A stretch of DNA of 4,445 nucleotides from Escherichia coli. Lineage in GTDB: Bacteria > Pseudomonadota > Gammaproteobacteria > Enterobacterales > Enterobacteriaceae. The first letter of the stretch is position 1; the number at the start of each line of letters is the position of its first letter. The notes under the pieces are model-generated. The model searched no databases. It saw only the letters and a list, made by a program, of their open reading frames with translations, and was not told the origin of the DNA. The stretch lies in the NCBI RefSeq assembly GCF_030384885.1, contig NZ_CP128616.1; one strand, 5' to 3'. This document shows positions 1-4,445 of this stretch, one piece after another. The position numbers and the translations under genes were made by a program.

Positions 1-262
1 AACAGTGAGCCATGTAGATGGTTGGAATGGCCTTCCTCAATACGAAATCAGGGGAAATAAAATCTACAGGACAGTGAGCCATGTAGATGGTTGGAATGGT
101 CTTCCTCAATACGAAATCAGGGGAAATAAAATCTACAGGACAGTGAGCCATGTAGATGGTTGGAATGGTCTTCCTCAATACGAAATCAGGGGAAATAAAA
201 TCTACACAACAGTGAGTCATGTAAACGGTTGGAACGGTCTTCCGCAATATGAGATCAGATAA
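1..262 (+). CDS. 3' portion of a small tandem-repeat protein (5'-partial in window; appears to continue from 4426-4445 across a circular junction); hypothetical
   Basis: Frame is open from position 2 to TAA at 260-262. Encodes VSHVDGWNGLPQYEIRGNKIYRT three times plus a diverged shorter copy. Differences between copies are mostly synonymous (GGC/GGT, AGC/AGT, AAT/AAC, CCT/CCG, TAC/TAT, GAA/GAG, AGG/AGA) against two amino-acid changes (R to T, D to N), which argues for selection on the protein. Confidence 0.6.
   Translation, partial: TVSHVDGWNGLPQYEIRGNKIYRTVSHVDGWNGLPQYEIRGNKIYRTVSHVDGWNGLPQYEIRGNKIYTTVSHVNGWNGLPQYEIR
2..259 (+). repeat. 69-bp tandem direct repeat, about 3.7 copies (units starting at 2, 71, 140, 209); in-frame coding repeat
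   Basis: Units 1-3 are near-identical (one GGC/GGT difference); unit 4 has eight substitutions. 69 bp = 23 codons, so the repeat is in frame. Confidence 0.9.
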
Positions 263-294: not shown

Positions 295-324
295 ATTTAC
301 CATAACATCTGTATTGTACGCACC
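295..324 (-). other. cer-like XerC/XerD site-specific recombination core (plasmid multimer resolution site)
   Basis: Reverse complement of 295-324 is GGTGCGTACAA-tacagatg-TTATGGTAAAT. Both 11-bp arms match the ColE1 cer XerC and XerD arms as I recall them (GGTGCGTACAA / TTATGGTAAAT) with an 8-bp central region, as in cer. Confidence 0.8.
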
Positions 325-558: not shown

Positions 559-780
559 CAGCCCACCATTAGCCCACACACAAAATACCGATGGGCACAC
601 CGATGTATCATAAAAATTTATCCGTTATATTTCATACAAATAAGAGGCCACCATCAGCCCACTCTATTAGCCCACAAAACGCCCACACTTTTGCTATCAC
701 TATGATTATCAATATAAAACCCACAAAAGTGGGCTGATGATGGGCTAACTGTGGGCGTAGAAGCCCATCATCAGCCCACC
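559..780. repeat. Array of GCCCAC/GTGGGC hexamer motifs (at least 9 copies) with AT-rich spacers and a perfect 17-bp inverted repeat (729-745 / 763-779)
   Basis: GCCCAC at 561, 572, 657, 670, 681, 773; GTGGGC at 729, 751; GCCCAT/ATGGGC variants at 740 and 763. Spacings of 11, 13, 11, 22, 22 bp. gtgggctgatgatgggc (729-745) is the exact reverse complement of gcccatcatcagcccac (763-779). Confidence 0.7.
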
Positions 781-1021: not shown

Positions 1022-1061
1022 GTAATTGTAATAGCGTCACGGGTGACGGTATTACAATTAC
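1022..1061. repeat. 19-bp near-perfect inverted repeat (palindrome) with 2-bp centre
   Basis: gtaattgtaatagcgtcac gg gtgacggtattacaattac; arms are reverse complements with one mismatch (G/G at 1034/1049). Confidence 0.8.
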
Positions 1062-1840: not shown

Positions 1841-1884
1841 AAATTGGGGGACAACCAGGACAGAACAAAGGCCGCGGCAGAGCC

Positions 1885-2440
1885 GTTTTTCCATAGGCTC
1901 CGCCCCCCTGACGAGCATCACAAAAACAGACGCTCAAGTCAGGGGGAGGCGAAACCCGACAGGACTATAAAGATACCAGGTGTTTCCCCCTGGAAGCTCC
2001 CTCGTGCGCTCTCCTGTTCCGACCCTGCCGCTTACCGGATACCTGTCCGCCTTTCTCCCTTCGGGAAGCGTGGCGCTTTCTCATAGCTCACGCTGTAGGT
2101 ATCTCAGTTCGGTGTAGGTCGTTCGCTCCAAGCTGGGCTGTGTGCACGAACCCCCCGTTCAGCCCGACCGCTGCGCCTTATCCGGTAACTATCGTCTTGA
2201 GTCCAACCCGGTAAGACACGACTTATCGCCACTGGCAGCAGCCACTGGTAACAGGATTAGCAGAGCGAGGTATGTAGGCGGTGCTACAGAGTTCTTGAAG
2301 TGGTGGCCTAACTACGGCTACACTGGAAGGACAGTATTTGGTATCTGCGCTCTGCTGAAGCCAGTTACCAGGTTAAGCAGTTCCCCAACTGACTTAACCT
2401 TCGAAAAACCGCCTCCCCAGGCGGTTTTTTCGTTTACAGA
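1885..2440 (-). ncRNA. RNAII replication primer precursor (ends approximate)
   Basis: RNAII promoter on the - strand: -35 TTGAGA (rc of 2469-2474), 17-bp spacer, -10 TAATCT (rc of 2446-2451), same hexamers as pBR322. 5' end placed about 2440 and 3' end about 555 nt downstream by analogy with ColE1. Confidence 0.75.
2331..2432 (+). ncRNA. RNAI antisense copy-number control RNA
   Basis: Begins ACAGTATTTGGTATCTGCGCTCTGCTGAAGCCAGTTACC as pBR322 RNAI. Upstream promoter -35 TTGAAG (2295-2300), 17-bp spacer, -10 CTACAC (2318-2323) as in pBR322. Terminator stem CCGCCT cccc AGGCGG followed by TTTTTT (2409-2430). Internal loop sequences differ from pMB1. Confidence 0.85.
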
Positions 2441-2512
2441 GCAAGAGATTACGCGTACAGAGCACGGATCTCAAGAAGATCGTAAGAAGAAAGTTAACAT
2501 GAGTGTTTTTAT

Positions 2513-2558
2513 CCCTCAAAAAGAAGGCTTCTATAAATAGAAGCCTTCTTTTTGAGGG
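2513..2558. terminator. 46-bp perfect palindrome / strong hairpin; likely bidirectional terminator between the higA 3' end and the RNAII promoter
   Basis: ccctcaaaaagaaggcttcta taaa tagaagccttctttttgaggg; 21-bp arms are exact reverse complements. T-rich sequence follows on the + strand; higA stop lies 26 bp away on the - strand. Confidence 0.65.
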
Positions 2559-2583
2559 ATAACTTATATTTTTTTAAAAAAAA

Positions 2584-2940
2584 TCATGCAATAGCATGTT
2601 TCTTCTCAGAATTATCAACAATGTGTTTCCTTTCTATGATTTCATGAGCGGGAATCACTCTGTCTATTTCTTCTTGCAATCGAGGGCTACTAGTAACCTC
2701 CCATAAATCAACAGACTGCTGTATATTTAGCCAGAACTTTGCAGTGGTATTGAAGGCTTTAGCCAACCTAAAAGCCATATCGGTAGACAGCTTTCTATTA
2801 TTGTTAACTAAAGCACTGGCAGAGTTTCTATGCACATTCAACATTTCAGCCAAGTCATTGATTTTTAAACCACTTGGTTCGAGATATTCATAAAGAATAA
2901 TATCCCCTACAGTTGATGGCTTTCTAGTTGCTTGGGACAT
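2584..2940 (-). CDS. higA: HigA-family antitoxin (XRE-type helix-turn-helix), 118 aa
   Basis: Translation ...TVGDIILYEYLEPSGLKINDLAEMLNVHRNSASALVNNNRKLSTDMAFRLAKAFNTTAKFWLNIQQSVDLW... has the pattern I recall for HigA/VapI antitoxins (PG.IL.EEFLEP.GL...LA..LGV.R......NG.R.I....A.RLA..FG.....WLNLQ). AGGAG sits 6 nt upstream of the ATG. Downstream of a HigB-family gene on the same strand. Confidence 0.85.
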   Translation of the reverse strand: MSQATRKPSTVGDIILYEYLEPSGLKINDLAEMLNVHRNSASALVNNNRKLSTDMAFRLAKAFNTTAKFWLNIQQSVDLWEVTSSPRLQEEIDRVIPAHEIIERKHIVDNSEKKHAIA

Positions 2941-3142
2941 GCTTTACTCCTAAATTTTTTACTTCTCTCTGTTAGATGAGGAAGATAAGTATTTCGTCTA
3001 TTACCAGCTGTAGCGATGAGTAATTATCTTAAATATAGTCACGTCATTTAGTTTATTAATCATTATTTGTAATGACATTTTAATGTAGGTGAGGGAACGC
3101 CTCACCTACTTGTTTTATAAGATAACAGCCACGACCTGTTAT
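2941..3142 (-). promoter_or_regulatory. higB-higA intergenic spacer (200 bp) with dyad elements; candidate independent higA promoter/operator
   Basis: Palindromes TCATTAtttgTAATGA (3060-3075) and GATAACAGccacgacCTGTTATC (3121-3143); - strand candidate -10 GATAAT; strong RBS for higA. No promoter has been demonstrated. Confidence 0.4.
3085..3109. terminator. Hairpin (10-bp perfect stem, 5-nt loop) inside the higB-higA spacer; terminator-like
   Basis: gtaggtgagg gaacg cctcacctac; followed on the + strand by TTGTTTTAT and on the - strand by A/U-rich sequence. Lies 33 nt downstream of the higB stop on the - strand. Confidence 0.5.
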
Positions 3143-3460
3143 CTATCGGTAATCATGTGGATCGAGATACAAATCCTCGATTCCGTTTTCACCCCACTTA
3201 AATATTAAGCGGTACTTCTCATTCACCCGTATGGATGAATACCCTGTCAATGGAGGGTTGAGATTCTCAAATCGGTTTCCCGGGGGAGACCGCAAATCTC
3301 CAACTTTATCAGCAGCATTCAGCATATCCAGCTTGCGACCTAATGAAGCACTAATCGCAGTTGGAATCTTTCGATTGGCTTTACCATATTTGTAAAACTG
3401 GTATAGCCAATCGTCTCGAAACTGAATGCGGCAATCATCATGTTCATGATCTTGCTGCAT
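3143..3460 (-). CDS. higB: HigB-family toxin (RelE/ParE superfamily, plasmid maintenance system killer type), 105 aa
   Basis: C-terminal region ...DLRSPPGNRFENLNPPLTGYSSIRVNEKYRLIFKWGENGIEDLYLDPHDYR matches the family signature I recall (DLRSPPGNRLE.L.G.R.GQ.SIR.N..WRL.F.W.......I.DYH). GAGGT RBS 9 nt upstream of the ATG. Toxin precedes antitoxin, as in hig loci. Confidence 0.85.
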   Translation of the reverse strand: MQQDHEHDDCRIQFRDDWLYQFYKYGKANRKIPTAISASLGRKLDMLNAADKVGDLRSPPGNRFENLNPPLTGYSSIRVNEKYRLIFKWGENGIEDLYLDPHDYR

Positions 3461-3646
3461 TTTTCTTTTACCTCAATTTTTGCCGCAACTTGGCAATTTT
3501 TTAGATCACCTTCTTACCTCCGATATAGTACAGCAAACACAAGAAATGCACAACAGCACAGTGCACTTGTGCAACCAATAACCATACTGTAGAATGCACC
3601 CACACACAGTGCAGATGTGCAAAATAGAGGGTAATTTGGAGGTTAC
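3461..3646. promoter_or_regulatory. Divergent promoter/operator region between higB (-) and the 80-aa ORF (+), with repeated TGCAC/GTGCA dyads
   Basis: Perfect palindrome TGCACttGTGCA (3562-3573), near-palindrome TGCAGatGTGCA (3610-3621) and further TGCAC copies at 3547 and 3595. Two copies of a roughly 19-bp repeat cacagtgca(c/g)(t/a)tgtgcaa (3557-3574, 3605-3622). Candidate higB promoter on the - strand: -35 TTGTGC (rc of 3548-3553), 17-bp spacer, -10 TACTAT (rc of 3525-3530). Candidate + strand promoter: -35 TTGTGC (3567-3572), 17 bp, -10 TAGAAT (3590-3595). Confidence 0.55.
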
Positions 3647-3889
3647 ATGGCTCTTGTTCGTTCAGGAAACAAAAGCAAGATTTTTGAAGCAGATAAGAAG
3701 TTTAACTCGGTTTTTGACACTGAATATCAGCCGGGAGAAACATGTAAATATGAAGGGATTTATAAATGTACCGGTTGCGGTAAAGAAGTAACTATCGCAG
3801 GTGGGAAAAAAATCCCACCACAAAACCACCACCAACATACCCCCGCGCAAGGGAACATTCGTTGGCAATTGTTTGTTTATGCTCAGTGA
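3647..3889 (+). CDS. Hypothetical small protein (80 aa) with Cys-x6-Cys-x2-Cys and a His-rich C-terminal segment; possible metal-binding or zinc-ribbon-like
   Basis: GGAGG RBS 4-5 nt upstream of the ATG; ORF starts right after the palindromic operator region, divergent from higB. Sequence ...CKYEGIYKCTGCGKEVTIAGGKKIPPQNHHQH.... No family recognised from memory. Confidence 0.55.
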   Translation: MALVRSGNKSKIFEADKKFNSVFDTEYQPGETCKYEGIYKCTGCGKEVTIAGGKKIPPQNHHQHTPAQGNIRWQLFVYAQ

Positions 3890-3899
3890 GGAATAGAAA

Positions 3900-4031
3900 A
3901 TGGCAGATCGTCGACCGCTCAACCCACACGTTGTCGTTCCTAAACCAGGCGGCGGAACTCAACCTCGTGACCGTAACAATGACGGAAGGGTCAGAGGAAA
4001 ACGCTCAGATGCAGGAAAGCCAAGAAAATAA
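3900..4031 (+). CDS. Possible small basic ORF (43 aa, MADRRPLNPHVVVPKPGGGTQPRDRNNDGRVRGKRSDAGKPRK); hypothetical
   Basis: GAGGA RBS 7 nt upstream of the ATG, beginning 11 nt after the stop of the 80-aa ORF; stop TAA at 4029-4031 lies just before an intrinsic terminator. Very short and low complexity, so coding status is uncertain. Confidence 0.3.
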   Translation: MADRRPLNPHVVVPKPGGGTQPRDRNNDGRVRGKRSDAGKPRK

Positions 4032-4035
4032 CAGC

Positions 4036-4064
4036 AAGCCGCCAGCCTGGCGGCTTTTTTATTT
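4036..4064 (+). terminator. Rho-independent terminator ending the 80-aa / 43-aa transcription unit
   Basis: aaGCCGCCAG cc CTGGCGGCtt stem followed by TTTTTTATTT. Confidence 0.75.
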
Positions 4065-4083
4065 ATATCTACAGCTGACACTG

Positions 4084-4099
4084 ATTTACCATAGCATCC
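4084..4099 (+). repeat. Copy 1 of a 16-bp motif ATTTACCATA(G/A)CATC(C/T) (XerD-arm-like)
   Basis: atttaccatagcatcc; 15/16 identical to 4365-4380 and 14/16 to 295-310 (the XerD arm plus adjacent central bases of the cer-like site). Lies 33 nt upstream of the 4132 start codon. Confidence 0.7.
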
Positions 4100-4131
4100 A
4101 CTGTATCTACTCAGTCTTGATAGGTGTTTTT

Positions 4132-4335
4132 ATGAGTAATGAATTAGACAGCCTTTCAGAAGTAGTTAAAGGACTCACAAAGATAGAGCTGCCTGGCGGC
4201 GGTGGCGGTGAAACCGATAGCCCTGTAGTTGAGGCAGCTATAGCTGTTGGCATTGTAGGGGCTGCTGCATATGGGATTTATAAGCTTTTTGGTCGCGCAG
4301 AACCCCAGAAAGATGAGGACAAACTCGGTTTCTAG
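4132..4335 (+). CDS. Hypothetical small membrane peptide (67 aa): acidic N-terminal segment, Gly5 run, one predicted transmembrane helix
   Basis: ATG at 4132 preceded by AGGTG; translation MSNELDSLSEVVKGLTKIELPGGGGGETDSPVVEAAIAVGIVGAAAYGIYKLFGRAEPQKDEDKLGF. The longer track ORF 3862-4335 is rejected because it spans the terminator at 4036-4064. Confidence 0.6.
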   Translation: MSNELDSLSEVVKGLTKIELPGGGGGETDSPVVEAAIAVGIVGAAAYGIYKLFGRAEPQKDEDKLGF

Positions 4336-4364
4336 AACCATAAGGCAGCATCAAAACGGCATTC

Positions 4365-4380
4365 ATTTACCATAACATCC
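4365..4380 (+). repeat. Copy 2 of the 16-bp motif ATTTACCATAACATCC (exact XerD-arm match, no convincing XerC arm)
   Basis: Reverse complement reads ...ggatg TTATGGTAAAT. The 11-bp arm is identical to the cer XerD arm; the flanking candidate XerC arm matches cer at only about 5 of 11 positions. Lies 46 nt upstream of the ATG at 4426. Confidence 0.7.
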
Positions 4381-4425
4381 GTTAACTGCGGCCTTGTCAT
4401 AAAAGAAATGGATATTGGAGACAAT

Positions 4426-4445
4426 ATGAGCAATAAGATCTATAG
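4426..4445 (+). CDS. 5' end of the tandem-repeat protein gene (3'-partial in window; continues in frame at position 1 if the molecule is circular)
   Basis: ATG at 4426 with GGAG 6 nt upstream; encodes MSNKIY then R from the junction codon (4444-4445 plus position 1), followed by TVSHVDGW... at 2 onward. The repeat unit sequence itself continues across the junction (aataagatctatag|a versus aataaaatctacagga). Confidence 0.6.

What the first reader, a model, noticed from the sequence alone, without database searches (positions are those of the whole stretch)
4132..4335. Small membrane peptide with an N-terminus resembling a double-glycine leader: possible bacteriocin- or microcin-like peptide, or small toxin
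MSNELDSLSEVVKGLTKIELPGG-GGG-ETDSPVVEAAIAVGIVGAAAYGIYKLF...: the NELDS segment and the Gly-Gly run recall double-glycine leaders of class II microcins (the ColV leader, as I recall it, is MRTLTLNELDSVSGG), and the Gly/Ala-rich hydrophobic core is typical of such peptides. No export or immunity genes are present, so this is speculative; a small membrane toxin, immunity protein or exclusion protein is equally possible.
Basis: partly seen in the sequence, partly recalled or inferred. Interest (0 to 1): 0.55.

Follow-up and report, generated by a model that had tools for sequence, protein, structure and literature searches.

The report
Small plasmid membrane protein, not bacteriocin
The 67-residue ORF is a real, conserved gene for a small single-pass membrane protein of unknown function, sitting in a tiny cassette inserted at the plasmid's Xer (cer) recombination site; its likeness to a bacteriocin leader is superficial.

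Summary
The ORF at 4132-4335 exists exactly as described and is a genuine gene: intact in 13 diverged loci, dN/dS 0.1-0.5 with saturated synonymous sites. The product has an N-terminal amphipathic helix, a Gly-rich linker, a conserved T-D-x-P-V-V-E cap, one Gly/Ala-zipper transmembrane helix and a short charged tail.

The double-glycine-leader reading fails. Similarity to ColV is 6/7 residues (NELDS[LV]S). That motif and the Gly run are not conserved in homologues: the run is 3-7 Gly and 6 of 24 members have no G-[GAS] site. No bacteriocin or leader profile matches, and none of the small plasmids read in full (3-10 kb, or short contigs) encodes a C39/ABC exporter.

The family is tiny: 18 representatives among 1.84 billion proteins. 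Every context I read was a mobile element (ColE1-type and larger plasmids, an ICE-like region, phage-like contigs), with no constant partner gene.

The window is a whole 4.4-kb ColE1-type plasmid of the E. coli O111 type. Here the gene is a ~281-bp cassette bounded by direct copies of the cer XerD arm plus central region. Cassette-less relatives break homology exactly at that core.

Most likely it is a resident inner-membrane accessory protein. An exclusion or immunity role is my guess and is unproven.

The parts
4036..4056 (+). Intrinsic-terminator hairpin (9 bp stem, then a T run) that ends the upstream block. Transcription of the peptide gene must therefore start in 4057-4131 or read through.
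   Evidence: The RefSeq 108-aa start for this gene would translate through this hairpin.
4084..4111 (+). Xer-like site A: XerD arm ATTTACCATAG (10/11 to the ColE1 cer XerD arm, reverse complement), 6-bp central CATCCA, degenerate XerC arm CTGTATCTACT (6/11). Left boundary of the cassette.
   Evidence: cer core sequence from the table in PMC2410131. Homology with cassette-less plasmids ends at 4099. Homology with L011 begins at 4084.
4122..4126 (+). Shine-Dalgarno AGGTG (AGGAG in most homologues), 5 nt before the ATG.
4132..4335 (+). CDS, 67 aa: small bitopic membrane protein of an uncharacterised family.
4138..4182 (+). Residues 3-17: predicted amphipathic N-terminal helix. The NELDS motif lies here and is poorly conserved.
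4177..4233 (+). Residues 16-34: family signature T-K-I-E-L-P, Gly-rich loop, E-T-D-S-P-V-V-E. Invariant: T16, T28, D29, E34. Near-invariant: P21, V33. The Gly run at 22-26 is not conserved.
   Evidence: (alignment A2)
4225..4290 (+). Residues 32-53: transmembrane helix with small-xxx-small spacing (A36, G40, A44, G48), ending in the conserved Y-K-L-F.
4365..4392 (+). Xer-like site B: exact XerD arm ATTTACCATAA, central CATCCG, degenerate XerC arm (5/11). Right boundary of the peptide cassette and left boundary of the next one.
   Evidence: Homology block with L013 ends at 4381.
4409..4445 (+). Start of the neighbouring cassette's gene (MDIGDNMSNKIY...). It continues at window 1 because the window is a complete circle.
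1..262 (+). Remainder of the neighbouring gene: four 23-aa repeats (RTVSHVDGWNGLPQYEIRGNKIY). Not part of the peptide's family context elsewhere.
295..324 (+). The plasmid's full cer-type core: exact XerD arm, 8-bp central CATCTGTA, exact XerC arm TTGTACGCACC. It is followed from 325 to about 500 by sequence alignable to the accessory region of related plasmids.

Best explanation
The ORF encodes a 67-residue protein that stays in the inner membrane of the plasmid-bearing cell. It has an N-terminal amphipathic helix (residues 3-17), a flexible Gly-rich loop, a conserved helix-capping motif (T-D-S-P-V-V-E), one Gly/Ala-zipper transmembrane helix (32-53) and a short charged tail. It is not a cleaved, exported peptide.

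It founds a very small, uncharacterised family. Every context I read for that family was a mobile element, and there is no constant partner gene, so it probably works alone against a host or invader component.

On this plasmid the gene is a ~281-bp cassette. It is bounded by direct repeats of the cer XerD arm plus central region and inserted at the core of the plasmid's cer site, followed by a second cassette (the repeat protein).

Inferred, not shown:
- XerCD-mediated recombination at these sites moved the cassette.
- The acidic N-terminal segment faces the periplasm (N-out/C-in, positive-inside rule).
- The protein acts as an exclusion- or immunity-type accessory ('moron'-like) factor that blocks an envelope entry route, rather than as a toxin.

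Sub-confidences:
- Real gene for a membrane protein, not a double-glycine bacteriocin: about 0.85.
- Xer-site-bounded insertion at cer: about 0.8.
- Protective exclusion/immunity role: about 0.3.
For: Coding and selection:
- The ORF is intact in 13 loci, dN/dS is 0.12-0.50 and dS is saturated.
- The antisense in-phase frame is broken in L016, L020 and L027.

Architecture:
- AlphaFold2 gives helices at 3-17 and 31-54 with a low-confidence loop.
- The best Kyte-Doolittle 19-mer scores 1.78 at residues 32-50.
- The invariant residues cluster just before the TM helix.

Topology: the N-tail holds 0-5 K/R against 2-9 D/E, and most members have K/R after the helix.

Family size and range:
- 14 close homologues.
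- 18 representatives with E <= 1e-3 among 1.84 billion proteins.
- None in IMG/VR or in 100,044 representative genomes.
- In E. coli complete genomes every match is on a plasmid, 17 of 5,426 genomes.

Contexts are all mobile elements and the neighbours vary:
- Rop/ColE1-type plasmids carrying HigBA, PvuII R-M plus CcdAB, an S-type pyocin operon, a BrxR-like gene or a two-gene pair whose 183-aa product carries an R-x4-H (HEPN-like) motif by eye but matched no profile.
- IncF plasmids.
- An ICE-like region.
- Phage-like contigs.
- A plasmid-like contig with MobA/MobL relaxase and TraD-family genes.

Cassette:
- The 16-mer ATTTACCATAACATCC occurs 3 times against 0.06 expected.
- It is the exact reverse complement of the cer XerD arm.
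- More than 25 cassette-less plasmids share window 1868-4099. One of them, pIsolateL_C, was read and runs straight on into its own XerC arm and accessory region.
- Block ends with L011 and L013 fall at 4084 and 4381.
- In 6 loci the upstream sites have degenerate XerC arms, while the site next to accessory-like sequence has a good arm. This is what insertion at the core would leave behind.

Not toxic by design:
- A good Shine-Dalgarno sits on a ColE1-type (typically high-copy) replicon.
- No antisense promoter was found.
- A Tn3 insertion in the gene is tolerated in pBone1B_3.
Against: - No experiment and no annotated homologue says what the protein does; every database calls it hypothetical.
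- No sigma-70-like promoter was found between the upstream terminator and the ATG, so expression is unproven.
- Topology is ambiguous in the short 'SSDD'-tailed members, which have only one K on each side. A tail-anchored N-in orientation is possible.
- XerC arms of sites A and B match only 5-6 of 11 positions, and both sites lack accessory sequences. Their activity with XerCD is unknown, and homologous recombination across the 17-bp repeats could give the same junctions.
- Some loci (L008, L009, L016) have no Xer-like site immediately upstream.
- The structure model is low confidence (mean pLDDT 62).
Confidence: 0.6

Rival explanations
1. One reading: a class II microcin- or bacteriocin-like precursor. 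An N-terminal double-glycine leader would be cut after the Gly run by a C39-peptidase ABC exporter, releasing a ~41-aa Gly/Ala-rich membrane-active peptide.
For: NELDS[LV]S matches the ColV leader at 6/7 positions. With exactly five Gly, E19-L20 fall at -8/-7 and L15 at -12 relative to G25-G26, which is 3 of 4 consensus positions. The core is Gly/Ala-rich and hydrophobic.
Against: - Position -4 is Gly, and Pro sits next to the run.
- The register depends on run length, which varies from 3 to 7.
- 6 of 24 family members have no G-[GAS] site at all, whereas the ColV control scores 4/4.
- NELDS is not conserved.
- The best-conserved residues straddle the supposed cleavage site.
- There are zero hits to NCBIfam, which I expect (not checked) to include double-glycine leader models, or to Pfam, at E <= 1.
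- No exporter, MFP or immunity gene is present on any of the small carrier plasmids (3-10 kb, or short contigs) read in full.
- The tail after the helix is polar and charged, as in a membrane anchor.
Confidence: 0.04
2. A membrane-damaging small toxin: a type I TA-like toxin, a holin-like protein or an abortive-infection effector. It would oligomerise through its glycine-zipper helix and depolarise the carrier cell when induced.
For: The A36/G40/A44/G48 small-xxx-small spacing is typical of oligomerising, pore-forming helices (general knowledge). The gene sits on plasmids rich in TA and defence cargo. In L009 it lies 30 nt after a two-gene pair whose 183-aa product carries an R-x4-H (HEPN-like) motif by eye, on the same strand.
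Against: - A strong Shine-Dalgarno sits on a ColE1-type (typically high-copy) replicon, with no antisense promoter or terminator detected.
- A conserved ~30-aa polar N-terminal domain is unusual for type I toxins.
- No cognate antitoxin-like gene is conserved next to it.
- There are no PADLOC or PHROG hits; the best is a holin family at E = 0.076.
- It is not next to lysis genes in the phage-like contexts.
Confidence: 0.2
3. A functional pair with the downstream repeat protein (4409-4445 + 1-262). The peptide would be its membrane anchor, immunity or export partner in one operon.
For: The two genes are on the same strand, 73 nt apart, with no terminator between them in this plasmid lineage.
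Against: A Xer-like site lies between the two genes. The repeat protein is missing next to the peptide in all other lineages. The repeat-protein family occurs without the peptide in Shewanella and other bacteria.
Confidence: 0.06
4. A cer-linked maintenance function. Expression from a promoter overlapping the Xer-like site would be controlled by XerCD occupancy or plasmid multimer state, making the peptide a protein analogue of the Rcd checkpoint.
For: The gene lies within about 50 nt of a Xer-like site or a cer core in most small plasmids. The only room for a promoter overlaps site A. Pcer in ColE1 is proposed to be repressed by nearby XerCD (PMC4393325).
Against: No promoter was detected. 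Distant family members on phage-like contigs, an ICE-like region and large plasmids have no cer context. The plasmids carry a separate full cer site with accessory-like sequence, which is where Rcd would normally be encoded.
Confidence: 0.05
5. Not a gene: a chance ORF, or the real gene is the antisense ORF 4107-4253.
For: The ORF is short and no promoter was found. A 48-aa antisense ORF shares the third codon position.
Against: The ORF is intact across 13 loci at down to about 40% identity, with indels in multiples of three and dN/dS well below 1. The antisense frame has internal stops and no conserved start.
Confidence: 0.02

Closest known systems
Class IIa microcin precursors with double-glycine leaders (ColV/MccV CvaC)
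   Same: Small, plasmid-borne in Enterobacteriaceae, Gly/Ala-rich hydrophobic stretch, and a 7-residue NELDS[LV]S match to the ColV leader.
   Different: No conserved GG/GA/GS cleavage context and no leader-profile match. No linked CvaAB-type exporter or immunity gene. The conserved core spans the supposed cut site, and a polar tail follows a single TM helix.
Xer-site-bounded gene modules: Acinetobacter pdif modules, and the Xer/oriT recombination model for small qnrB19 ColE1-type plasmids (Tran et al. 2012, as cited in PMC7399989 and PMC10454011)
   Same: A short cargo segment is bracketed by XerC/XerD-type sites on a small plasmid, and homology breakpoints fall at the core site. XerD arms are better conserved than XerC arms, as reported for enterobacterial xrs (bioRxiv 10.1101/2024.04.05.588136).
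   Different: Sites here are in direct orientation (from my own knowledge, not checked here, pdif modules usually have inverted pairs). The internal sites have very degenerate XerC arms and no accessory sequences. The cargo is a single 204-bp gene, not a resistance gene. Recombination activity is untested.
Small single-pass exclusion or immunity proteins encoded as 'morons' by phages and plasmids, such as HK97 gp15 (from my own knowledge, not tested here)
   Same: Size of 55-75 aa, a single TM helix, stand-alone gene, mobile-element contexts in every locus read, variable neighbours, and one copy between the two terminase genes of a phage-like contig.
   Different: No sequence or profile similarity to any such family. 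A protective phenotype has not been shown.
Pf3/M13-type small N-out membrane proteins inserted without a signal peptide (from my own knowledge)
   Same: Acidic N-terminal tail, one TM helix, and basic residue(s) just after it (the Y-K-L-F end resembles M13 ...IKLFKKF).
   Different: The tail is not net basic, so it is not a DNA-binding coat protein. No inovirus genes are nearby and there is no PHROG match.
Type I toxins and colicin lysis (BRP) lipoproteins of small plasmids
   Same: Small, hydrophobic and plasmid-borne.
   Different: No Cys and therefore no lipobox. No antisense RNA signals. A long conserved polar N-terminal segment.

Membership tests
Double-glycine-leader bacteriocins / class II microcins | Leader ending in G-[GAS], with hydrophobic residues at -4, -7 and -12 and an acidic residue at -8 | tested here: not met
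   Best site in the window peptide scores 3/4 (the -4 position is Gly) and only in the 5-Gly register. Other members score 0-3. The ColV control scores 4/4.
Double-glycine-leader bacteriocins / class II microcins | Cleavage motif conserved among homologues | tested here: not met
   6 of 24 members have no G-[GAS] site, and the run length is 3-7 Gly.
Double-glycine-leader bacteriocins / class II microcins | Match to leader or bacteriocin profiles (NCBIfam, Pfam) | tested here: not met
   0 NCBIfam families at E <= 1. The only Pfam hit is B12D at E = 0.23.
Double-glycine-leader bacteriocins / class II microcins | Linked C39-peptidase ABC exporter, accessory protein and immunity gene | tested here: not met
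   None in the window or on any small carrier plasmid read in full. Chromosomal exporters of the hosts could not be examined.
Double-glycine-leader bacteriocins / class II microcins | Secreted antibacterial activity | not testable with these tools
   Needs supernatant assays.
Bitopic (single-pass) membrane protein | One hydrophobic helix long enough to span the bilayer | tested here: met
   Kyte-Doolittle 19-mer mean of 1.78 at residues 32-50. AlphaFold2 helix at 31-54. The helix is conserved in all 24 members.
Bitopic (single-pass) membrane protein | Defined orientation (positive-inside) | tested here: inconclusive
   N-tail K/R 0-5 against D/E 2-9. The C-flank has K/R in most members but only one K in the 'SSDD'-tailed ones. 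No dedicated topology predictor was available.
Xer-site-bounded module / insertion at cer | XerD arm, 6-8 bp central region and XerC arm on both sides | tested here: inconclusive
   XerD arms match 10/11 and 11/11 and the central regions are CATCC[AG], but the XerC arms match only 6/11 and 5/11. The third site (295-324) is a perfect cer core.
Xer-site-bounded module / insertion at cer | Homology with cassette-free relatives breaks at the core site | tested here: met
   More than 25 plasmids share 1868-4099. One read in detail, pIsolateL_C, continues into its own XerC arm and accessory region. Block ends also fall at 4084 and 4381.
Xer-site-bounded module / insertion at cer | XerC/XerD-dependent recombination | not testable with these tools
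   Needs in vivo or in vitro recombination assays.
Type I toxin-antitoxin toxin | Overlapping or adjacent antisense RNA gene, and toxicity on expression | tested here: inconclusive
   The simple scan finds no promoter on either strand in 3850-4445, and no Rfam match lies in the region. Toxicity cannot be tested here.
Colicin lysis (BRP) lipoprotein | Signal peptide with a lipobox Cys | tested here: not met
   There is no Cys in the protein.

The most novel reading that the evidence does not exclude
The peptide is the founding member of a new family of mobile-element-borne, single-pass exclusion or defence proteins. In enterobacterial ColE1-type plasmids it travels as a minimal (~280 bp), promoter-poor gene cassette that XerCD inserts at the cer core. 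Repeated insertion would build integron-like tandem arrays of direct Xer sites, with degenerate XerC arms on the internal sites and the good arm plus accessory sequences kept by the last site.
Probability: 0.2. Interest if true: 0.6.

Novelty: new member of a known kind. Interest (0 to 1): 0.33.

Why it matters
As a bacteriocin candidate it does not hold up, which removes a false lead. What remains is modest but real. It is a conserved, wholly unannotated small membrane protein, and every copy whose context I read lies on a mobile element, including the small plasmid of E. coli O111 (STEC) strains. RefSeq appears to annotate its start codon wrongly. It is also a clean sequence-level example of one-gene cassettes inserted at the core of a ColE1-type cer site. 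Such Xer-bounded modules have been described mainly in Acinetobacter. If the protein proves to block phage or bacteriocin entry, or if the Xer sites prove active, it would give a simple system for studying how small plasmids collect accessory genes.

Tried and rejected
**Searches that found nothing useful**
- Pfam, NCBIfam, PHROGs and PADLOC on the peptide and on 10 divergent relatives: no significant family.
- PDB profile search: only generic TM-helix matches (p75NTR TM domain, E = 0.019).
- IMG/VR and GTDB representative-genome scans with the family pattern: no relatives.
- INPHARED phage search with the member from the phage-like contig: no match.
- Full-text search for family sequence strings: no paper.
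- Profile searches of neighbouring genes in L009, L026 and L027: nothing. The L005 neighbour is only a generic HTH.

**Not attempted**
- Fold search, because the model is helix-loop-helix at mean pLDDT 62 and would give meaningless matches.

**Readings considered and rejected**
- A sigma-70 promoter in 4057-4131: the scan finds none. By eye, TTTACC and TATCTA are only 13 nt apart.
- Flp/type IV pilin-like processing: there is an invariant E early in the helix, but the residue before it is an invariant D rather than G, and Pfam shows no Flp match.
- Filamentous-phage coat protein: the tail is not basic.
- GlyGly-CTERM sorting signal: there is no signal peptide and no cargo domain.
- The antisense ORF 4107-4253 as the real gene.

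Full report
**1. What the window is.** The 4445-base window is a complete circular ColE1-type plasmid.
- It carries Rop (1412-1615) and RNAI (2333-2433; Rfam, 91 bits).
- It also carries a HigA/HigB pair on the minus strand and two small ORFs.
- It aligns end to end, at 98.5%, with a doubled copy of the 4468-bp plasmid p08_4377-3 of E. coli O111. The last bases of the window therefore join the first.

**2. The observation.**
- A Shine-Dalgarno sequence (AGGTG here, AGGAG in most homologues) sits 5 nt upstream of the ATG.
- RefSeq annotates a longer 108-aa product that starts upstream. That extension runs through a strong terminator hairpin at 4036-4056, and the upstream in-frame sequence differs in every homologous locus. 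I therefore take ATG 4132 as the start.

**3. Is it a gene?**
- A word-indexed search of 5.8 billion proteins found 14 homologues of 50-110 aa.
- A profile search that reads every one of 1.84 billion cluster representatives found only 18 with E <= 1e-3. One of these, a 341-aa protein with four PIDLPGGGGGET repeats, is a different kind of protein.
- Codon alignments of nine loci give dN/dS of 0.12-0.50, with synonymous sites often saturated.
- A 48-aa antisense ORF (4107-4253) shares the third codon position, so third-position variation cannot separate the two strands. However, that frame has internal stops in L016, L020 and L027 and no conserved start, whereas the plus-strand ORF is intact in all 13 loci.
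- The gene is real.

**4. Anatomy of the protein.**
- In a 24-member alignment the invariant residues are M1, T16, T28, D29 and E34. P21, V33 and A38 are nearly invariant.
- The family signature is T-K-[IV]-x-[LIV]-P, a short loop, then [EK]-T-D-[SN]-P-V-V-E, running into a hydrophobic helix that ends in Y-K-L-F, followed by a variable polar tail.
- AlphaFold2 with this alignment gives helices at 3-17 and 31-54 joined by a low-confidence loop (mean pLDDT 62).
- The helix at 32-50 has a Kyte-Doolittle mean of 1.78, and the protein has no cysteine.
- The N-terminal segment is strongly acidic (0-5 K/R against 2-9 D/E). Most members have K/R just after the helix.
- By the positive-inside rule this favours N-out/C-in. 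The short 'SSDD'-tailed members are ambiguous, so orientation is an inference.

**5. The bacteriocin reading.**
- The similarity is only NELDS[LV]S, 6 of 7 residues, with pairwise E = 0.039 for a single comparison.
- In ColV that motif abuts the GG. Here the Gly run lies 13 residues further on and is preceded by Pro.
- With exactly five glycines, E19-L20 fall at -8/-7 and L15 at -12. Position -4 is Gly, however, and the register changes with run length, which varies from 3 to 7.
- Six of 24 members have no G-[GAS] site at all. They carry PDVGKIETD, PEIGKIKTD, PELGEFETD and similar sequences.
- NELDS itself is replaced or deleted in many members.
- No NCBIfam, Pfam, PHROG or PADLOC family matches.
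- No small carrier plasmid read in full encodes an exporter.

**6. Where the family lives.**
- In complete E. coli genomes every match is on a plasmid, in 17 of 5,426 genomes.
- PLSDB holds 3 records of the window type and 5 of a variant type.
- Nothing was found in IMG/VR or in 100,044 representative genomes.
- Neighbours differ from locus to locus:
  - HigBA (this window);
  - a PAAR-like / S-type pyocin / immunity operon (L008, pEA5_3);
  - an HTH gene (L004-L007);
  - a two-gene pair whose 183-aa product carries an R-x4-H (HEPN-like) motif by eye but matched no profile (L009);
  - PvuII R-M with CcdAB (L011);
  - a BrxR-like gene (L018);
  - ProQ/FinO and AAA ATPases on IncF plasmids (L024).
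- More distant members sit in other mobile-element contexts:
  - an ICE-like region (L022);
  - a phage-like contig, between the two terminase genes (L026);
  - beside a baseplate gene (L019);
  - a plasmid-like contig with MobA/MobL relaxase and TraD-family genes (L027).
- No partner gene is conserved.
- In pBone1B_3 a Tn3 insertion truncates the gene after residue 49, so it is dispensable for plasmid maintenance.

**7. The cassette.**
- The 16-mer ATTTACCATAACATCC occurs three times in the window, at 295, 4084 and 4365, all on the plus strand. The expectation from shuffles is 0.06.
- ATTTACCATAA is the exact reverse complement of the XerD arm of ColE1 cer (TTATGGTAAAT). TTGTACGCACC is the exact reverse complement of its XerC arm (cer core as tabulated in PMC2410131).
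- Window 295-324 is a perfect cer-type core with an 8-bp central region. It is followed by sequence alignable to the accessory region of related plasmids.
- The sites at 4084 and 4365 keep the XerD arm and a CATCC[AG] central region. Their XerC arms match only 6/11 and 5/11.
- More than 25 plasmids of about 4.8 kb from Enterobacter, Citrobacter and Klebsiella share window 1868-4099 at 95% and then diverge.
- One of these, pIsolateL_C, was read in detail. The shared sequence runs through the XerD arm and central region straight into that plasmid's own XerC arm and accessory region.
- Relative to such plasmids, the window carries two extra units inserted at the core: the peptide cassette (about 4100-4381) and the repeat-protein cassette (about 4382-4445 plus 1-313).
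- Block ends with L011 (start at 4084) and L013 (end at 4381) fall at the same points.
- In six loci the sites upstream of the gene have degenerate XerC arms, while the site next to accessory-like sequence has a good one. This is the pattern expected if circles carrying one site integrate at cer.
- Xer involvement in reshuffling small plasmids is an established idea. Relevant sources are Tran et al. 2012 and Zakharova et al. 2002, as cited in PMC6764390, PMC7399989 and PMC10454011, and PMC7399989 on Xer-flanked modules, which it says occur mostly in Acinetobacter.
- A survey of enterobacterial replicons reports that XerD arms are better conserved than XerC arms, and that xrs on small plasmids come with accessory sequences. 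Sites A and B lack accessory sequences.
- Whether XerCD acts on sites A and B is untested. Some loci (L008, L009, L016) lack an upstream site.

**8. How it most likely works.**
- Shown: it is a conserved gene, it has the architecture of a single-pass membrane protein, it lacks a conserved cleavage motif and an exporter, every context read is a mobile element, and it lies inside a unit bounded by Xer-core repeats.
- Inferred: it stays in the inner membrane of the carrier cell, probably with the acidic N-terminal segment outside, and it acts alone on a host or invader component.
- Three points argue against a built-in toxin:
  - a good ribosome-binding site on a ColE1-type (typically high-copy) replicon;
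  - the absence of an antitoxin-like partner or antisense signals;
  - the tolerated Tn3 disruption.
- The distribution among variable accessory cargo, including a slot between the terminase genes of a phage-like contig, resembles that of small exclusion or immunity proteins. That is my best guess, at about 0.3.
- The toxin or pore alternative stands at about 0.2. The remaining probability is spread over the other rivals and 'none of these'.

**9. Expression is unresolved.** A terminator lies 75 nt upstream of the ATG, and no sigma-70-like promoter was detected in between. The only space for one overlaps Xer-like site A.

**10. Verdict.**
- The bacteriocin interpretation is not supported, while the fallback 'small membrane protein' is.
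- The object is an unannotated member of a familiar kind, a small accessory membrane protein of mobile elements, in a neat Xer-bounded cassette.
- Interest is modest. It would rise if a protective phenotype or Xer-dependent mobility were demonstrated.

Noticed in passing
window 4409-4445 joined to 1-262 (+); L001 2187-2486; L023 3945-4244: A 99-aa protein made of four 23-aa repeats (RTVSHVDGWNGLPQYEIRGNKIY) spans the window junction. It has 25 homologues with 2-4 such repeats, including in Shewanella baltica and a Paceibacterota MAG, and no Pfam domain. RefSeq annotates the opposite strand in pCPF6 (168 aa) and nothing at all in the O111 plasmids, so the gene appears to be mis- or un-annotated. 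It forms its own Xer-bounded cassette.
   Followed up: partly
window 295-324 and about 325-500; L001, L009, L011, L013, L018: A perfect cer-type core with exact ColE1 XerD and XerC arms and an 8-bp central region, followed by accessory-like sequence. Related small plasmids carry direct arrays of 2-4 Xer-like sites in which only the site next to the accessory-like sequence keeps a good XerC arm.
   Followed up: partly
window 4009-4335; RefSeq WP_001377235.1 and WP_052895115.1: RefSeq starts the peptide gene 41 codons upstream (108 aa). That reading frame runs through the terminator hairpin at 4036-4056 and is not conserved in homologous loci. The 67-aa start at 4132 is better supported.
   Followed up: yes
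L003 (pBone1B_3, NZ_CP054168.1) about 6749-6930: A Tn3 (blaTEM-1) insertion truncates the peptide gene after residue 49, within the TM helix, so the gene is dispensable for plasmid maintenance.
   Followed up: yes
window 560-779: Three direct copies of AGCCCACCATCAGCCCAC (560, 645, 762) and a perfect 18-nt inverted repeat (729-746 / 762-779). They look like iterons or protein-binding sites in the region that replaces the mob genes of related plasmids.
   Followed up: no
window 3647-3889 and 3900-4031: An 80-aa CxxC protein matches PHROG 15514 of unknown function (E = 2.8e-17). It is followed by a 43-aa very basic, Pro/Gly-rich ORF. Both travel with the HigBA block in many 4.8-kb plasmids.
   Followed up: no
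window 3545-3622: Two 30-nt direct repeats (AATGCACnnCAnCACAGTGCAnnTGTGCAA, 48 nt apart) lie between higB and the 80-aa ORF. They are possibly operator sites.
   Followed up: no
window 2509-2562: A perfect 26-nt palindrome (2 nt between the arms) lies between the origin and higA. It is probably a bidirectional terminator, and it produces spurious miRNA hits in Rfam.
   Followed up: no
window 1022-1061 and 1047-1238: A 19-nt near-perfect palindrome (1022-1040 / 1043-1061) and a 29-nt inverted repeat pair 134 nt apart (1047-1075 / 1210-1238), upstream of rop in a region without annotated genes.
   Followed up: no
P0029 (341 aa, metagenomic): An unrelated Pro/Gly/Ala-rich protein repeats 'ATPIDLPGGGGGETVVDE' four times. 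This closely echoes the peptide's 'TKIELPGGGGGETDSPVVE' loop and may be coincidence or a shared short structural motif.
   Followed up: no
L005 3120-3578: In one plasmid lineage the gene just upstream of the peptide encodes an HTH (Xre-type) protein. Its C-terminus is a long glycine-zipper hydrophobic tail (GSAGATMGATLGTAIGSVGSVGSFGAIVGGVVGAILAG).
   Followed up: no
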